A DNA stretch of 40,860 nt from an uncultured Ruficoccus sp. (GCA_965140785.1 OZ223485.1:1-40860); one strand, 5' to 3'; counted from the stretch's first letter, positions 30,962 through 35,228 are shown. Numbers and translations are program-made. Notes: generated from the sequence alone by a model not told the origin.

Positions 30962-33622
30962 TTACTGGATCAGGCCTTTTAGGACCTCGTCCAGCTTATC
31001 GGGGTCCTTGCCGCCGCCCATGGCAAAGTCTGGCTTGCCGCCGCCTTTGCCACCGAGCTGGGCGGTTAGCTCTCGCACGATGTCGCCGGCCTTATGGCCT
31101 TTTTTGATCGCGGCGGGCGAGCAGGTGGCCAGCACCGTCACTTTGCCGCCGAAGTCTCCGCCGAGTGCGACCACGCCCTCGCCGAGTTTCTTCAAGAGGT
31201 CCACGGCGAGCCCGCGCATGTCGTTCGGGTTGGCTACCTTGACGGAAGCGGCGATCCACTTGAGGTCGTCTTTTTCCACCGCTTGCGAGAGCAGGTCTCC
31301 GCCCTGCTGGGCGGCTTGCTTCTGCTCCAGGTTGCGGAGTTTTTTCTCCAGGTCGGAGCGCTGGTCGAGCAGGGCCTGGAGGCGTTCCTCAAGTTCGTCC
31401 GGACGGCAGGAGAGCGTGCGCGAAAGATGGCTCAGCCGGTCGAAATTCCGCGCGGCCAGCTCGACCGCATTGGCGCCGGTGACGGCCTCGATGCGCCGGG
31501 TGCCTGCCGAGATGGCCGACTCCGAGACGATCTTGAACAGGCCCAGCTCGCCGGTGGCGCGCACATGGGTGCCGCCGCAAAGTTCCTTCGAGTAGCCGCC
31601 GATGTCCACCACGCGCACGATGGCCCCGTACTTCTCGCCGAAGACCGAGACGACGTCTTCGGGTTTGTCTTCGAGCGGAATTTCGTACCACTGCACGGTG
31701 TCGTTGGCGATGATCTTGGCGTTGATCATCTCTTCGATCTCGTGGAGTTGCTCCGGGCTCAGCGCCTCGAAGTGGCTGAAGTCAAACCGCAGGTGGCCGG
31801 GGGCGACGAGGGAGCCGGCCTGCCGGATGTGCGAGCCGAGCTGCTCGCGCAGTGCCCAGTCGAGCAGGTGCGTGGCCGAGTGATGCCGCTGTACCTGGCG
31901 GCGGCGCTCGGTGTCCACACTGAGCATAGCGCCCTGGCCGACGAGGGCCTGGTAGTCGCCCTTGGGCGCCTTGTGCAGGACATGTCCGGCGGTATCGGTG
32001 ATCGTATCCAGAATCTCGATACGCGTGTCACCGATTTCGGCGATGCCAGAGTCGCCGACCTGACCGCCCATTTCGGCATAGAAGGGTGTTTGCGCAAAAA
32101 TCAGGTAGCTGGCGTTCTCGTCTTCGAAGGTGCCGACCAGCGTGGTCTCCACGCCGGTGACCTCGCGGCAGTCGTAGCCGACGAACTGGGTGGAGTGGAT
32201 TTTCTCGCCCTCTTCGAAGACCGAGATGATGTCCTTCTTCTGCGCGGCGCGGGCGCGCTGGCGCTGCTTCTCCATCTCCGACTCGAAGCCCGCGCTATCG
32301 ACGGACAGGCCGCGCTCGCGCGCGATGATCTGCGTCAAATCAAGCGGGAAGCCGTAGGTGTCGTAGAGGATGAACGCCTGCTCGCCGGTGATGCCGGTGC
32401 CGTCGAGGGTGAACTTGTCAAAGAGCTGGAGGCCGCGGTCGAGCGTACGCTCAAAGGCCTGCTCCTCCTGCCGGATGACTTTTAAAATAACCTCGTGCTG
32501 CTCGGCCAGTTCGGGGAAGACGGGCGACATTTTTTTGACCAGCGGGCCGACCAGATTGGCGAAAAATCCCTTGGGCAGGTTGATGCGCTTGCCGAACATG
32601 ACGGCGCGGCGCAGGATGCGGCGTAGCACATAGTGGCGTCCTTCGTTGCCGGGCAGGATGCCGTCGGCGATGGAAAAGGACAGGGTGCGGATGTGGTCGG
32701 CCAGCACGCGGAAGATGACGTCGGTCATTTCCTGGCCGGAGAGGTCGTTGCGGTCCTCAGGGACGGTGGCGGTGTAGGTGCGCCCCGAAGCGTCCGAGAT
32801 GTGCCGGAATAAATCGCCGAAGAGATCGCTGTCGTAGTTGCTGGGGGACTTGGAAAAGTCCGTAAAACCCTCGGTGGTGGCGAAGATTCCGGCCACGCGC
32901 TCAAAGCCCATCCCGGTGTCCACGTGCTTGGCCGAGAGCGGCTTGAAGGAGCCGTCGGCCTCGGCGTTGAACTGCATGAAAACGAGGTTCCAGATCTCGA
33001 TGCAGTAGGGGCTGTCGGCGTTGACCAGTTCGCCGTTAGTGTCGCCGTTGGGGGTGAGGTCGATGTGGACCTCCGAGCAGGGGCCGCAGGGGCCGGTGTC
33101 GCCCATCATCCAGAAGTTGTCCTTTTTGCCGCCGGTGCGGATGTGCTTCTTCGGGTCGAGCCCGTCGGCCTCGAAGACGCTCTTCCAGATATCGTAGGCC
33201 TCCTGGTCGAACTCGGAGGGGTCGCCCTCGTCGGGGCGGTAAACGGTGGCGTAGAGCCGGTCCTTGGGCATGCCCCAGACGTAGGTCAGCAGCTCCCAGG
33301 CCCACTCGATGGCCTCGCGCTTGAAGTAGTCGCCGAACGACCAGTTCCCCAGCATCTCGAAGAAGGTGTGATGGTACGTGTCGAAGCCAACGTCTTCGAG
33401 GTCGTTGTGCTTGCCCCCGGCGCGGATGCACTTCTGCGTGTCGCAGGCGCGGGAGTAGGGGGCCTTCTGCTCGCCCAGAAAATACGGGACGAACTGGTTC
33501 ATCCCCGCATTGGTGAAGAGCAGGTTGGGCGAGCTCGGCATCAGCGGAGCCGAGGACACGACCGTGTGCTCCTTCGAGGCGAAGAAGTCCAGAAAGCTCT
33601 GACGAAGTTCAGCGGAGGTCAT
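30962..33622 (-). CDS. alaS: Alanine--tRNA ligase
   Basis: LLFTNAGMNQF, QKCIRAGGKHNDL, HHTFFEMLGNWSFGDYFK, GPCGPCSE, VDTGMGFER, DHIRT, LYDTYGFP, editing motifs HHSATHLL and ELCGGTH, GGKGGGKPDFAMGGG. Confidence 0.98.
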   Translation of the reverse strand: MTSAELRQSFLDFFASKEHTVVSSAPLMPSSPNLLFTNAGMNQFVPYFLGEQKAPYSRACDTQKCIRAGGKHNDLEDVGFDTYHHTFFEMLGNWSFGDYFKREAIEWAWELLTYVWGMPKDRLYATVYRPDEGDPSEFDQEAYDIWKSVFEADGLDPKKHIRTGGKKDNFWMMGDTGPCGPCSEVHIDLTPNGDTNGELVNADSPYCIEIWNLVFMQFNAEADGSFKPLSAKHVDTGMGFERVAGIFATTEGFTDFSKSPSNYDSDLFGDLFRHISDASGRTYTATVPEDRNDLSGQEMTDVIFRVLADHIRTLSFSIADGILPGNEGRHYVLRRILRRAVMFGKRINLPKGFFANLVGPLVKKMSPVFPELAEQHEVILKVIRQEEQAFERTLDRGLQLFDKFTLDGTGITGEQAFILYDTYGFPLDLTQIIARERGLSVDSAGFESEMEKQRQRARAAQKKDIISVFEEGEKIHSTQFVGYDCREVTGVETTLVGTFEDENASYLIFAQTPFYAEMGGQVGDSGIAEIGDTRIEILDTITDTAGHVLHKAPKGDYQALVGQGAMLSVDTERRRQVQRHHSATHLLDWALREQLGSHIRQAGSLVAPGHLRFDFSHFEALSPEQLHEIEEMINAKIIANDTVQWYEIPLEDKPEDVVSVFGEKYGAIVRVVDIGGYSKELCGGTHVRATGELGLFKIVSESAISAGTRRIEAVTGANAVELAARNFDRLSHLSRTLSCRPDELEERLQALLDQRSDLEKKLRNLEQKQAAQQGGDLLSQAVEKDDLKWIAASVKVANPNDMRGLAVDLLKKLGEGVVALGGDFGGKVTVLATCSPAAIKKGHKAGDIVRELTAQLGGKGGGKPDFAMGGGKDPDKLDEVLKGLIQ

Positions 33623-33639
33623 GGGAATGGGTGTTGGGA

Positions 33640-34115
33640 TTAACCACAGAGGGCACAGAGAACACAGAGAGGGGAAAAGAGGCTATTTTTGAGGAAACTT
33701 TAAGAAAAACCATGTTTCATCTGAAAACTTAAGTCCCAACTCTTTTCTTAAGCCGTCTCTGAGGGAATTTAATAGAGGAACAGATTGGGTGCCCCCTTTA
33801 TTGGCAATATCATGAGCAGCTTCTCGTGCTAATTTAACCTGATCGACGGAGCCAAAAACTTGTATGTCCGTAAGTGCTTGCTGAACATCATCCGCCAATC
33901 CAGGGACGAATCCAGATGCATTTGCATATCTTGCCAGGGTTCTGTACACGGTAATGAGATAATTTATTCGCTGCTCTCTTCTCTTGCTTTCTCGATCTCG
34001 CCAGGCAGCTAACTGATGCGAAGCAACCAAACTCAATATACCGAATACGGCAGAAATGATGATGGCGTAACCTTCGCTCATGGCTCTCTGTGTTCTCTGT
34101 GCCCTCTGTGGTTAA
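33640..34115. mobile_element. 476-bp cassette-like unit: perfect 32-bp inverted arms enclosing one low-GC gene
   Basis: TTAACCACAGAGGGCACAGAGAACACAGAGAG (33640-71) and its exact reverse complement (34084-34115). Mobility is inferred, not shown. Confidence 0.65.
33683..34081 (-). CDS. Low-GC hypothetical protein with N-terminal membrane anchor
   Basis: 132 aa, TM YAIIISAVFGILSLVA, charged segment RDRESKRREQR, helical C-part LNSLRDGLRKELGL; about 40-45% GC by eye; fills the space between the two arms. Confidence 0.8.
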   Translation of the reverse strand: MSEGYAIIISAVFGILSLVASHQLAAWRDRESKRREQRINYLITVYRTLARYANASGFVPGLADDVQQALTDIQVFGSVDQVKLAREAAHDIANKGGTQSVPLLNSLRDGLRKELGLKFSDETWFFLKFPQK

Positions 34116-34127
34116 AATGAAAGAAGT

Positions 34128-35228
34128 TTATAAACGTTCGACGATGGCGTCGGCCATGGCCTTGGTGCCAACGGGGGTCTTGCCGAAGGCGATGTCGCCG
34201 GTGCGGACGCCGTCCTCGACGGCCTTGCGGATGGCGGCGGAGAGGCGGTCGGCGATGGCGTCGAGGCCGAAGCTGTAGCGCAGCATCATGGCGGCGGAGA
34301 GGACCTGGGCGCAGGGGTTGGCCACGCCCTTGCCGGCGATGTCGGGTGCGGTGCCGCCGGCGGGCTCGTAGAGGCCGTAAGGCAGGCCGACGGAGTTGTT
34401 ACCGGTGCCGAGACTGGCGGAGGACATCATGCCGAGCGAGCCGCAGATGATGGCCATCTCGTCGCTGAGGATGTCGCCGAACATGTTTTCGGTGAAAATG
34501 ACGTCGAACTGGTTCGGGTCGCGCACGAGTTGCTGGGCGGCGTTGTCCACGTAGAGGTGGCTCAGCTCGAGGTCGGGGTGGTTCTTCTTAAAGTACTCGA
34601 CCACGGTCTTGCGCCACAAGACGGAGGTTTCGAGGACGTTGGCCTTGTCCACGGAGCAGACGCGTCCGCCGCGGGCCTTGGCGGTGACGGCGGCGACCTC
34701 GGCGATACGCTCGATTTCGCTGACCTTGTACACCATCGTGTCCACGGCCTGCACGTCGCCGTCGGGGAGGGTGGTCGTTTCCTTGGGCTGGCCGAAGTAA
34801 ATACCGCCGGTCAGCTCGCGGATGCAGACGATGTCGATCCCGTCGGGAATGCTGTCCGGGCGCAGCGGGGAGGCGTCCACCAGCTCCTTGAAGAGGAGGC
34901 CGGGGCGGATGTTGGCGAAAAGATTAAAAGCCTTGCGAATGGGCAGGAGGGCGGCGCGCTCGGGCTGCTCCTTCGGTGGGAGGTTTTCCCACTTGGGGCC
35001 ACCGACGGAGCCGAAGAGGATGGCGTCCGCGTTTCGGCAGACCTCCAGGGTGCTCTCGGGCAGGGCCGTGCCGTGATTATCGATGGCGATCCCGCCGACA
35101 TCGGCGTGGGTAAACTCCAGCGCGAGCCCCTCGGGTTTCGTGGCAGCCTCGAGCACGGCGAGGGTGGCGTCCATCACTTCGGGCCCGATGCCATCGCCGG
35201 GCAGTACCGCAAATTTCAGTGTCTTCAT
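34128..35228 (-). CDS. leuB: 3-isopropylmalate dehydrogenase
   Basis: AVLPGDGIGPEV, FGSVGGPKW, FANIRP, RELTGGIYFG, SVDKANVLE, YVDNAAQQL, NMFGDILSDE, YEPAGGTAPDIAGKGVANP. Start set at MKTLKF rather than the longer ORF-track start. Confidence 0.97.
   Translation of the reverse strand: MKTLKFAVLPGDGIGPEVMDATLAVLEAATKPEGLALEFTHADVGGIAIDNHGTALPESTLEVCRNADAILFGSVGGPKWENLPPKEQPERAALLPIRKAFNLFANIRPGLLFKELVDASPLRPDSIPDGIDIVCIRELTGGIYFGQPKETTTLPDGDVQAVDTMVYKVSEIERIAEVAAVTAKARGGRVCSVDKANVLETSVLWRKTVVEYFKKNHPDLELSHLYVDNAAQQLVRDPNQFDVIFTENMFGDILSDEMAIICGSLGMMSSASLGTGNNSVGLPYGLYEPAGGTAPDIAGKGVANPCAQVLSAAMMLRYSFGLDAIADRLSAAIRKAVEDGVRTGDIAFGKTPVGTKAMADAIVERL

What the first reader, a model, noticed from the sequence alone, without database searches (positions are those of the whole stretch)
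33640..34115. Orphan low-GC gene packaged between perfect 9-bp-periodic inverted arms: candidate mini gene-cassette system
Seen: a 132-aa gene of foreign composition sits between co-oriented leuB and alaS, bounded by a perfect 32-bp inverted repeat built of three CACAGAG units at 9-bp spacing and ending in TTAA at both outer edges. The ATG is only 2 bp from the upstream arm, whose purine-rich end (AGAGAG) could act as the ribosome-binding site. The stop is 11 bp from the other arm. There is no promoter space, transposase or integrase. Inference: the arms are recombination or mobilisation sites for single-gene cargo expressed from the host operon, resembling integron cassettes in logic but with no attC-like sequence. 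From memory (unverified), similar periodic arms often flank GxxExxY and four-helix-bundle genes in other bacteria, and I know of no established mechanism for them.
Basis: partly seen in the sequence, partly recalled or inferred. Interest (0 to 1): 0.8.

Follow-up and report, generated by a model that had tools for sequence, protein, structure and literature searches.

The report
Hairpin-armed gene slot between leuB and alaS
A small membrane-protein gene sits inside a perfect 32-base hairpin between two housekeeping genes; close relatives have the same hairpin empty, and the same kind of arms hold other small genes elsewhere, so the arms mark slots whose contents change by an unknown mechanism.

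Summary
A perfect 32-nt inverted repeat (33640-33671 / 34084-34115, three CACAGAG units 9 nt apart, TTAA outer ends) encloses a 132-aa low-GC ORF between co-oriented leuB and alaS.

The arms belong to a dispersed hairpin family: 9-56 arms per genome in the five genomes of this genus, 0 in controls. A generalised form occurs in 21 of 41 genomes of the order.

At the same leuB-alaS site, G001 has arms plus the gene. G003 and G004 have the arms with a loop of only about 22-24 nt. Four further orthologous sites differ between congeners: different cargo, different arms or no element.

The same arm type brackets GxxExxY (PDDEXK_3) nuclease-fold genes. Of 40 sampled PF13366 genes, 31 have such flanking arms, against 0 of 40 controls.

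The cargo is not an orphan. Its unnamed family has 1415 representatives and is under purifying selection (dN/dS about 0.11).

Best reading: a passenger-carrying member of the GxxExxY-type hairpin cassette class. This scan has met that class in other genomes, and I found no paper that describes it. Movement and mechanism are not shown.

The parts
33640..34115 (-). Whole element, 476 bp: 5' arm, 132-aa gene, 3' arm (coding orientation is the minus strand).
   Evidence: As RNA the two ends pair into a 32-bp stem that closes the whole insert: MFE -164.8 kcal/mol, z -5.42.
34084..34115 (.). leuB-side arm (5' arm of the cassette): TTAACC plus three CACAGAG units at 9-nt spacing. It ends 2 nt before the cargo ATG.
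   Evidence: It belongs to a family with 20 arms in G000 at <=3 mismatches and 0 in the reversed control.
33640..33671 (.). alaS-side arm (3' arm), the perfect reverse complement of the other arm. It begins 11 nt after the cargo stop codon.
33683..34081 (-). Cargo gene, 132 aa. It has an N-terminal hydrophobic helix, the conserved motif HQLAAWRDRxxKRREQR, then a helical domain. The family is unnamed.
   Evidence: ORF. (homologues). (AF2 pLDDT 80.6; helices 3-54, 62-76, 79-95, 101-114). (dN/dS about 0.11 against G001).
34128..35228 (-). leuB (3-isopropylmalate dehydrogenase), upstream gene. Its stop codon is 12 nt before the 5' arm.
30962..33622 (-). alaS (alanyl-tRNA synthetase), downstream gene. 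Its ATG is 17 nt after the 3' arm.

Best explanation
The element is a passenger-carrying member of a class of palindromic DNA cassettes. Their two arms are TTAACC followed by about three periodic 8-11-nt units of the type C-R-C-R-R-A-K. The usual occupant of these cassettes is a small GxxExxY (Pfam PDDEXK_3, PD-(D/E)XK nuclease-fold) gene.

Shown:
- The arms are one copy of a dispersed hairpin family.
- The hairpin at the leuB-alaS junction is shared by the four congeners assembled there. Its loop is about 22-24 nt in two of them and the 412-nt gene in the other two, so the loop content changed while the arms stayed.
- Other slots with these arms hold GxxExxY genes, small membrane or lipoprotein genes, nested hairpins or nothing, and they differ between congeners.
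- The two arms of one element resemble each other more than arms of other elements.
- The cargo is a real gene under purifying selection.

Inferred:
- The arms are the cis-acting ends that define a slot, and loop content is swapped at the DNA level. The likeliest route is recombination or gene conversion that uses the arms, or the flanking housekeeping genes after uptake of a relative's DNA, as homology.
- The GxxExxY nuclease may act in trans on such hairpins, rather as RAYT acts on REPINs or a homing endonuclease acts on an empty site.
- The cargo is transcribed by read-through from leuB, since it is co-oriented and has no promoter-like site.
- In the transcript the 32-bp stem should be a substrate for RNase III, as in ORF-bearing 23S rRNA intervening sequences.

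The cargo is most likely a small membrane-anchored accessory protein. Its function is unknown.
For: 1. Arm family. In G000 there are 27 matches at <=3 mismatches and 0 in the control. In the genus: G000 20, G001 9, G002 56, G003 43, G004 15, with 0 in every control. The generalised arm occurs in 21 of 41 genomes of the order, controls 0.
2. Orthologous site. G001 has arms plus a gene 74% identical in protein. G003 and G004 have arms with inner lengths of 24 and 22 nt. The arms are identical between G000 and G003 although the adjacent spacers differ.
3. Other pairs in congeners. I read 28 plus/minus pairs. Twenty were fetched, 3 were already held and 5 short ones were not fetched. Seven hold a gene (L004, L043, L044, L045, L046, L047, L049) and one is ambiguous (L048). 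Interiors have GC 0.39-0.51 against 0.61-0.65 in the flanks.
4. Slot comparisons with G000:
   - The L046 site is unoccupied in G000, where the flanking genes overlap.
   - The L049 site holds an empty hairpin of another arm subtype.
   - The L044 site holds a different 122-aa lipoprotein-like ORF with one arm kept.
   - The L043/L047 GxxExxY site holds two other ORFs, with the 3' arm and its TAAACCC junction kept.
5. GxxExxY link:
   - PF13366 genes lie inside CACAGAG arm pairs in G004 (C8) and G002 (C119).
   - A broken one lies in G000 C39.
   - 31 of 40 sampled PF13366 genes from 26 genomes have flanking arms with >=18 matched bases, against 0 of 40 with shuffled flanks.
   - All 21 arm-positive genomes have PF13366. 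So do 6 of the 20 arm-negative genomes, and 14 genomes have neither.
6. Arm covariation. Within-element identity is 24.5 of 26 against 22.9 between elements; 0 of 10000 permutations reach the observed value.
7. The junction is a recurrent site. G024 has a GxxExxY cassette there, G016 has an empty hairpin, and G027 and G017 have only 4-5 nt between the two genes.
8. Cargo under selection: dN 0.158, dS 1.44.
9. RNA stem. The IVS precedent has a 28-bp stem, an ORF in the loop and RNase III cutting (PMC4990558, passages read).
Against: - No movement was seen. The public runs are contigs that break at the arms. The one 'joint' across the cargo carries 27 other letters and is another hairpin copy, not an excision product.
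- The leuB-alaS pattern needs only one gain or loss. G000, G001 and G003 are about equidistant, so a single old insertion followed by vertical descent fits.
- Arm number does not follow an intact cognate nuclease gene. G000 has 20 CACAGAG arms, but its only GxxExxY gene with arms of CACAGAG-like units (C39) is broken. The two PF13366 genes found in G001 have CGCAAAG-type arms (L081, L088).
- 9 of 40 sampled PF13366 genes fell below my arm threshold.
Most genomes lacking both are small.
- In the 28 metagenome loci fetched, relatives of the cargo lack periodic arms, so the gene is not tied to the arms.
- Arms of 26-32 nt are short for RecA-type homology.
- The catalytic activity of GxxExxY proteins is unknown. 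I found no experimental paper.
Confidence: 0.55

Rival explanations
1. RNA-level module only. The hairpin is kept because, in the leuB-alaS transcript, its long stem is an RNase III processing or stability site, like the intervening sequences of 23S rRNA or REP stem-loops in operons. The gene in the loop is an old chance insertion, and no DNA-level cassette mechanism exists.
For: - A perfect 32-bp stem closes the insert in the predicted RNA (z -5.42).
- The arms are conserved between species more than the adjacent spacers.
- The two arms co-vary.
- The size and layout match the Coxiella IVS, which has a 28-bp stem, an ORF in the loop, is 428-444 nt long and is cut by RNase III (PMC4990558).
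- The elements sit inside operons just after stop codons.
Against: - It does not explain why different genes, other arm subtypes or no element occupy orthologous slots in congeners.
- It does not explain nested hairpins inside loops.
- It does not explain why the arms so regularly bracket one nuclease-fold gene family.
- Covariation of the arms is also expected from DNA-level conversion.
- No RNA data were available.
Confidence: 0.2
2. An ordinary REP/MITE-like palindrome that acts as a fragile or recombinogenic spot. Hairpins or cruciforms stall replication or break, and foreign low-GC DNA is occasionally captured there by illegitimate recombination. No dedicated enzyme is involved and the arms have no function as cassette ends.
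For: - Most copies are gene-less.
- Several loaded slots keep only one recognisable arm or have two unlike arms: G000 C43:59869, C47:108315 and C48:397900-398420.
- The cargo family occurs without arms elsewhere.
- REP sequences are known insertion targets for IS elements (title and abstract of PMC8450116, seen in the listing).
Against: - In the intact cases the gene fills the loop almost exactly: 2 nt and 11 nt here, and the ATG abuts the arm in L043 and L047.
- 31 of 40 PF13366 genes have well-matched arms at a near-constant inner length of about 380-430 nt. Random capture would not produce this regularity.
Confidence: 0.2
3. A terminal-inverted-repeat transposon (MITE with a passenger gene), moved in trans by a DDE or Y1 transposase encoded elsewhere, with TTAA or TA as the target duplication.
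For: - Perfect terminal inverted repeats end in TTAA at both edges.
- The family is dispersed.
- The L046 site in G000 is a clean unoccupied site.
Against: - No DDE_3 match was found in G000. The piggyBac model also gave none, but it rang in no control genome, so that result says nothing.
- The two Y1_Tnp genes are flanked by a different inverted repeat, not by periodic arms.
- The bases before AACC vary between the two ends of single elements, for example TCAACC against TAAACC in L043 and AAAACC against TTTAACC in L045. A TTAA duplication is therefore not consistent, and because TTAA is a palindrome it cannot be told apart from the repeat itself.
- Presence or absence at leuB-alaS concerns the loop, not the whole element.
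Confidence: 0.07

Closest known systems
ORF-bearing intervening sequences (IVS) of 23S rRNA, e.g. the Coxiella burnetii helix-45 IVS with the S23p ORF (PMC4990558; abstract and passages read)
   Same: An insert of about 430-480 nt is bordered by terminal inverted repeats that form a stem of about 28-32 bp. One small ORF fills the loop. A purine-rich stretch lies just upstream of the start, inside or next to the stem. The origin is unexplained and was long suspected to be a mobile element.
   Different: This element lies between two protein-coding genes, not in rRNA. The ORF is not of the S23p/IVP family. The arms are built of periodic units and belong to a dispersed family with gene-less copies. 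RNase III cutting has not been tested here.
REPIN/RAYT systems (PMC3116915, PMC3337134; titles and abstracts seen in the listing; the rest is my own knowledge)
   Same: Dispersed hairpin-forming repeat pairs number tens per genome and lie between genes. A gene that is itself flanked by the same repeats is the suspected mobilising enzyme.
   Different: The flanked gene here has a PD-(D/E)XK fold (PF13366), not an HUH Y1 transposase. It occurs in several copies per genome, each with its own arm variant. The Y1 genes of G000 carry other repeats. The arms are periodic arrays and can enclose passenger genes.
Integron gene cassettes (attC plus IntI) - own knowledge, no paper read
   Same: These are single promoter-less genes bounded by hairpin-forming DNA and expressed from outside, with cargo that varies between relatives.
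   Different: An integron cassette has one attC at its 3' end, whereas this element has two identical inverted arms. There is no integrase, attI or array; the neighbours are alaS and leuB. The slots are scattered singly through operons.
Paired tandem hepta-/octanucleotide repeat 'global regulator binding sites' annotated in Geobacter metallireducens (PMC2700814; passages and supplement legends read; the supplementary figures themselves were not opened)
   Same: These are pairs of sites on opposite strands, each made of 4-5 tandem 7-8-nt repeats, at variable distance and present in dozens of copies.
   Different: They were read as regulator sites. No link to enclosed genes or to GxxExxY is stated in the passages I saw. 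The unit sequences differ, and I did not test whether they are the same class.
GxxExxY-type hairpin cassettes noted earlier by this scan in other genomes (AI notes, not publications)
   Same: The architecture is the same: periodic inverted arms, a PF13366 gene in full-length copies, and gene-less hairpins as the majority.
   Different: Here the loop holds a non-nuclease passenger gene. Orthologous slots in five congeners could be compared, and they show both empty/loaded states and exchange of cargo.

Membership tests
GxxExxY-type periodic-hairpin cassette (working name; no published definition found) | Two inverted arms, each TTAACC-like plus about three periodic 8-11-nt units of type CRCRRAK | tested here: met
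   The arm matches the generalised pattern AACC(CRCRRAK NN)x3, which gives 36 hits in G000 and 0 in the control.
GxxExxY-type periodic-hairpin cassette (working name; no published definition found) | The same arm family brackets PF13366 genes in the same lineage | tested here: met
   G004:C8:104921-105268 and G002:C119:107430-107777 lie inside CCACAGAG..CACAGAG..CACAGAG pairs. Order-wide, 31 of 40 sampled genes have arms.
GxxExxY-type periodic-hairpin cassette (working name; no published definition found) | The loop holds a PF13366 (PDDEXK_3) gene | tested here: not met
   No Pfam or NCBIfam hit at E<=1. The model is all-helical with an N-terminal hydrophobic helix. The element is therefore filed as a passenger-carrying derivative, not a canonical member.
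GxxExxY-type periodic-hairpin cassette (working name; no published definition found) | Gene-less hairpin copies of the same arms dispersed in the genome | tested here: met
23S rRNA intervening sequence (IVS) | Inserted in a 23S rRNA helix and removed from the rRNA | tested here: not met
   It lies between the leuB stop and the alaS start.
23S rRNA intervening sequence (IVS) | Terminal inverted repeats forming a long stem around an ORF of the S23p/IVP family (PF05635) | tested here: inconclusive
   The stem is present. The ORF is not PF05635. Two PF05635 genes elsewhere in G000 do have periodic arms of their own.
23S rRNA intervening sequence (IVS) | Excision by RNase III | not testable with these tools
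   No RNA run holds the stretch.
Integron gene cassette | A single attC at the 3' end, with an intI integrase, attI and a cassette array nearby | tested here: not met
   Two identical inverted arms flank the gene, and the neighbours are alaS and leuB. No integrase search of the genome was run.
REPIN/RAYT | A Y1 (HUH) RAYT gene flanked by the same repeats | tested here: not met
   The two PF01797 genes of G000 (C10:480126-481055, C43:224705-225634) are flanked by a GGGGTCA...CAATAAT inverted repeat, not by periodic arms.
MITE / TIR transposon | Terminal inverted repeats, a target-site duplication, and a cognate transposase with the same ends | tested here: inconclusive
   TIRs are present. A duplication cannot be told apart from the palindromic TTAA and is not consistent in other copies. 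No DDE_3 was found. The piggyBac search was uninformative.

The most novel reading that the evidence does not exclude
The periodic arms and the GxxExxY (PD-(D/E)XK) genes form an undescribed kind of mobile system. A small nuclease recognises hairpins or cruciforms built of its own 8-11-nt repeat units and cuts them. Repair then copies or exchanges whatever lies between matching arms. The dispersed hairpins would then act as a genome-wide set of single-gene slots: an integrase-free, scattered counterpart of an integron. Through these slots small envelope-protein genes, such as this one and the lipoprotein and membrane ORFs in other slots, are gained, lost and swapped inside housekeeping operons.
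Probability: 0.3. Interest if true: 0.9.

Novelty: new variant of a known kind. Interest (0 to 1): 0.7.

Why it matters
GxxExxY (PF13366/TIGR04256) and the '23S rRNA intervening-sequence protein' family are among the commonest bacterial proteins of unknown function. The full-text searches I could run found almost nothing on them: GxxExxY occurs in 3 papers, none about repeats.

This locus shows that their periodic hairpin arms are more than wrapping for those two families. The same arms hold unrelated small genes, and they sit as empty hairpins at the same chromosomal site in sister species.

That gives a concrete natural test bed of five congeners, with at least five slots in different states. 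It can be used to ask how a gene enters or leaves a hairpin loop without a recognisable recombinase. It can also be used to ask whether a long perfect stem inside a housekeeping operon (leuB-alaS) is processed like an rRNA intervening sequence.

If a nuclease-driven exchange is confirmed, it would be a new route of gene flux into the cores of operons.

Tried and rejected
- **Public reads.** No RNA holder is listed. All four runs laid are Logan contigs, whose unitigs stop at the arms. In X1 these are 33300-33669, 33642-34113 and 34086-34500. The joint 33672>34086 in X1 has 27 other letters between its two sides, so I read it as another hairpin copy (I did not match those letters to a particular copy), not as an excision. 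Run X2 holds cargo pieces identical to the window next to diverged flank pieces, which I could not interpret. None of this is evidence on excision or expression.
- **Cargo function.** No hit in Pfam, NCBIfam, PADLOC or PHROGs. Foldseek against the PDB gave nothing at E<=0.001. The nearest ESM Atlas clusters are unnamed hypothetical proteins. Twenty-five neighbour ORFs at 13 metagenome loci show no recurring partner.
- **Other cargo ORFs.** Those in L044, L045, L046, L048 and L049 have no Pfam hit.
- **Remnants of the cargo in the empty loops.** Comparing the G003 and G004 loops with the cargo ends by eye gave only A/T-rich similarities, which I do not trust.
- **dS as a clock.** The cargo dS of 1.44 against 0.32-0.46 in the flanks could mean separate acquisitions. 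It could equally reflect the very different codon composition (GC3 0.37-0.48 against 0.87). I left this undecided.
- **G002 at leuB-alaS.** Its contigs end inside alaS and leuB, so the state of the site is unknown. No cargo homologue was found in that 95%-complete assembly.
- **RAYT, DDE_3 and piggyBac candidates.**
- **Literature.** Searches found no paper that links periodic inverted arms with PF13366 or with exchangeable cargo. Subscription journals and unopened supplements may hold one.
- **Search syntax.** Two paper searches failed on term syntax and were re-sent in corrected form.

Full report
**1. What is there**

The window carries a perfect 32-nt inverted repeat at 33640-33671 and 34084-34115, with 412 nt between the arms. 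Each arm reads TTAACC followed by three CACAGAG units at 9-nt spacing. The three-unit pattern is not expected by chance: 0 matches in 100 shuffles.

Between the arms lies one ORF, 33683-34081 on the minus strand, of 132 aa. Its ATG is 2 nt from the leuB-side arm and its stop codon is 11 nt from the alaS-side arm.

leuB (34128-35228, likely start) and alaS (30962-33622) are on the same strand. They lie 12 nt and 17 nt from the arms.

The insert has GC of about 0.42-0.47, against 0.59-0.73 around it. Its GC3 is 0.37, against 0.87 in alaS. No sigma-70-like promoter site was found in 33300-34500.

**2. The arms are a repeat family**

- In the window's genome (G000, 4.36 Mb, 50 contigs) the three-unit pattern has 27 matches at up to 3 mismatches and none when read backwards.
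- With the CC prefix, the five genomes of the genus have 20, 9, 56, 43 and 15 arms (G000, G001, G002, G003, G004). The control count is 0 everywhere.
- In G000 most arms stand as close inverted pairs forming hairpins of 70-130 bp with no ORF. Unit variants are CACAGAG, CACGGAT and CACAGAT.
- A generalised pattern, AACC(CRCRRAK NN)x3 at up to 1 mismatch, occurs in 21 of 41 genomes sampled from the order. Controls are again 0.
- Over 26 pairs, the two arms of one element are more alike than arms of different elements: 24.5 against 22.9 of 26 positions, and 0 of 10000 permutations reach that value. The fetched pairs in that set were chosen for wide spacing.

**3. The same site in relatives**

| Genome | State at leuB-alaS | Source |
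|---|---|---|
| G000 | Arms plus gene; 416 nt between the 26-nt arm cores | |
| G001 | Arms (3 mismatches between them) plus gene, 74% identical in protein; 413 nt between cores | |
| G003 | Arms only; 24 nt between cores | |
| G004 | Arms only; 22 nt between cores | |
| G002 | Not assembled across the site; no homologue of the gene found | |

The arms of G000 and G003 are identical, although the short spacers beside them differ. By leuB and alaS, G000, G001 and G003 are about equidistant (dS 0.32-0.46) and G004 is the outlier. The hairpin is therefore older than the genus, and the loop content changed at least once while the arms stayed.

Further out in the order, leuB and alaS are separated by 4-5 nt in G027 and G017. 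G016 has an empty hairpin of a related arm type at the junction. G024 has a GxxExxY gene between periodic arms there. The junction is thus a recurrent or very old site for this class of element.

**4. What else the arms enclose**

From the table I read 28 plus/minus pairs in the four congeners. Twenty were fetched, 3 were already held and 5 with loops of 7-76 nt were not fetched.

Seven of the 28 enclose a gene:
- the 132-aa gene in G001;
- two GxxExxY genes (L043 in G004, L047 in G002);
- ORFs of 101, 123, 77 and 66 aa (L044, L045, L046, L049), three of them strongly hydrophobic.

One pair (L048) is ambiguous. Interiors have GC 0.39-0.51, against 0.61-0.65 outside. None of the small ORFs has a Pfam hit.

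Several loops hold nested hairpins of other periodic families (L052, L055, L057, L059, L061). The 123-aa ORF of L045 has inner arms of its own.

Mapping the flanks of these loci back to G000 gives four more slot comparisons:
- The L046 site has no element in G000; there the two flanking genes overlap.
- The L049 site holds an empty hairpin with another arm subtype.
- The L044 site holds a different 122-aa lipoprotein-like ORF (GC 0.41) with one arm kept.
- The GxxExxY site of L043/L047 holds two unrelated ORFs (GC 0.41), with the 3' arm and its TAAACCC junction kept.

Within G000, arms also border a lipoprotein-like gene of about 148 aa at C48:397900-398420.

**5. The nuclease-fold gene**

G000 has six PF13366 matches, which make up five genes (one broken), and two PF05635 genes. 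Each gene is flanked by its own periodic inverted arms. For the broken C39 gene my inverted-repeat search returned none, and I read the arms from the printed flanks.

Across the 41 genomes, PF13366 is present in 27. All 21 arm-positive genomes have it, 6 arm-negative ones have it too, and 14 have neither. The genomes lacking both are mostly small, and relatives are not independent, so this is only suggestive.

I sampled 40 of the roughly 125 listed PF13366 matches, from 26 genomes and none from G000. They were taken from the top of the list and spread over genomes. Of these, 31 have flanking inverted arms with at least 18 matched bases. By eye nearly all of these arms are made of periodic 8-11-nt units, and the inner length is about 380-430 nt. 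With shuffled flanks the count was 0 of 40, and the best control reached 16 matched bases.

In L043 and L047 the ATG abuts the 5' arm, and the reading frame runs through the 3' arm to the TAA of the terminal GGTTTAA.

The Y1 transposase genes of G000 carry a different inverted repeat. No DDE_3 gene was found.

**6. The cargo**

It has no Pfam, NCBIfam, PADLOC or PHROGs hit. It is nevertheless not an orphan:
- 6 relatives were found in the word-indexed search.
- A profile of these finds 1415 representatives at E<=1e-3 and 972 at E<=1e-10, mostly 130-150 aa.

The alignment keeps an N-terminal hydrophobic stretch and the motif HQLAAWRDRxxKRREQR. The AlphaFold model (pLDDT 80.6) is a long helix followed by three helices. 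It has no significant PDB match.

Against G001 the gene shows dN 0.158 and dS 1.44, so it is under purifying selection.

Relatives in 28 metagenome loci are single genes among unrelated neighbours. They lack periodic arms, although several are also low in GC.

**7. How it most likely works**

Shown:
- a dispersed hairpin family;
- a slot at leuB-alaS whose loop is empty or loaded in sister species;
- other slots with different cargo;
- a strong association of such arms with PF13366 genes;
- co-variation of the two arms of an element;
- a selected cargo gene.

Inferred:
- The arms are the cis-acting ends of a cassette class.
- Loop content is exchanged at the DNA level. The GxxExxY nuclease is the candidate trans-acting enzyme, and recombination through the arms or through the flanking housekeeping genes is the candidate route.
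- The cargo is expressed by read-through from leuB.
- The 32-bp RNA stem (MFE -164.8 kcal/mol, z -5.42) is cut by RNase III, as in ORF-bearing 23S rRNA intervening sequences (PMC4990558).

I put 0.55 on the class assignment with DNA-level exchange, and about 0.3 on the nuclease-driven version.

Against it:
- No movement was observed.
- One gain or loss suffices for this site.
- Arm number does not track an intact cognate nuclease gene.
- The arms are short for homologous recombination.

**8. Comparison and novelty**

The layout is closest to rRNA intervening sequences, and the population structure is closest to REPIN/RAYT. Defining features of both, and of integron cassettes and TIR transposons, were tested and not met (see the membership table).

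Paired tandem hepta- and octanucleotide repeat sites were annotated in Geobacter metallireducens as regulator sites (PMC2700814). This is the nearest published description of such arms that I found. No paper in the searchable library links them to PF13366 or to exchangeable cargo.

This scan has already noted GxxExxY-type and four-helix-bundle-type hairpin cassettes in other genomes. New here are a non-nuclease passenger gene and side-by-side empty, loaded and swapped slots in one genus.

Noticed in passing
L043 (G004:C8:104883-105320) and L047 (G002:C119:107392-107832): The GxxExxY reading frames start at an ATG that directly abuts the last CACAGAG unit. They run through the whole 3' arm and stop at the TAA of the terminal GGTTTAA, so the arm encodes a ...PSVHSV.SVV tail.
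   Followed up: partly
L052, L055, L057, L059, L061; L045; G000 C18:97140-97490: Loops of CACAGAG hairpins contain complete hairpins of other periodic families (GCGAAG, CGCAAAG and CACGGAT units). This suggests that hairpin loops are themselves insertion sites.
   Followed up: partly
L050, L053, L054 (G003) and L060 (G002): A sub-family has arms that continue inward as CGCTGnCGCT...AGCGnCAGCG. They enclose 169-172 nt of variable, ORF-less sequence. It may be related to the 240-bp repeat of note e1-5236218.
   Followed up: no
G000 C10:480126-481055 and C43:224705-225634: Two nearly identical 309-codon frames with a Y1_Tnp (PF01797) match are each flanked by an inverted repeat GAAGGGGTCA..CAATAAT / ATTATTGA..TGACCCCTTC. 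This is a separate, RAYT- or IS200-like element.
   Followed up: partly
G000 C42:39659-39675 versus L046 (G004:C24): Where G004 has a 77-aa cassette, the two flanking genes of G000 overlap (ATGTCAGCTGA). In G004 the downstream gene uses a different start codon after the insert.
   Followed up: partly
L015 (metagenome contig), 1751-2365: A relative of the cargo gene is flanked on both sides by REP-like hairpins built on GGCTGGCGCAGA. This is a different, non-periodic repeat.
   Followed up: no
window 33300-34500, run X2: A second run of the same organism label holds contig pieces identical to the cargo (33866-34116) alongside flank pieces with 2-3% differences. This could be two strains in one sample.
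   Followed up: no
G000 C48:397900-398420: A lipoprotein-like gene of about 148 aa (low GC) lies just after an aminotransferase stop codon. It sits between two unlike arms: a short CACAGAG-type arm on the left and a CGCAAAG-type arm on the right.
   Followed up: partly
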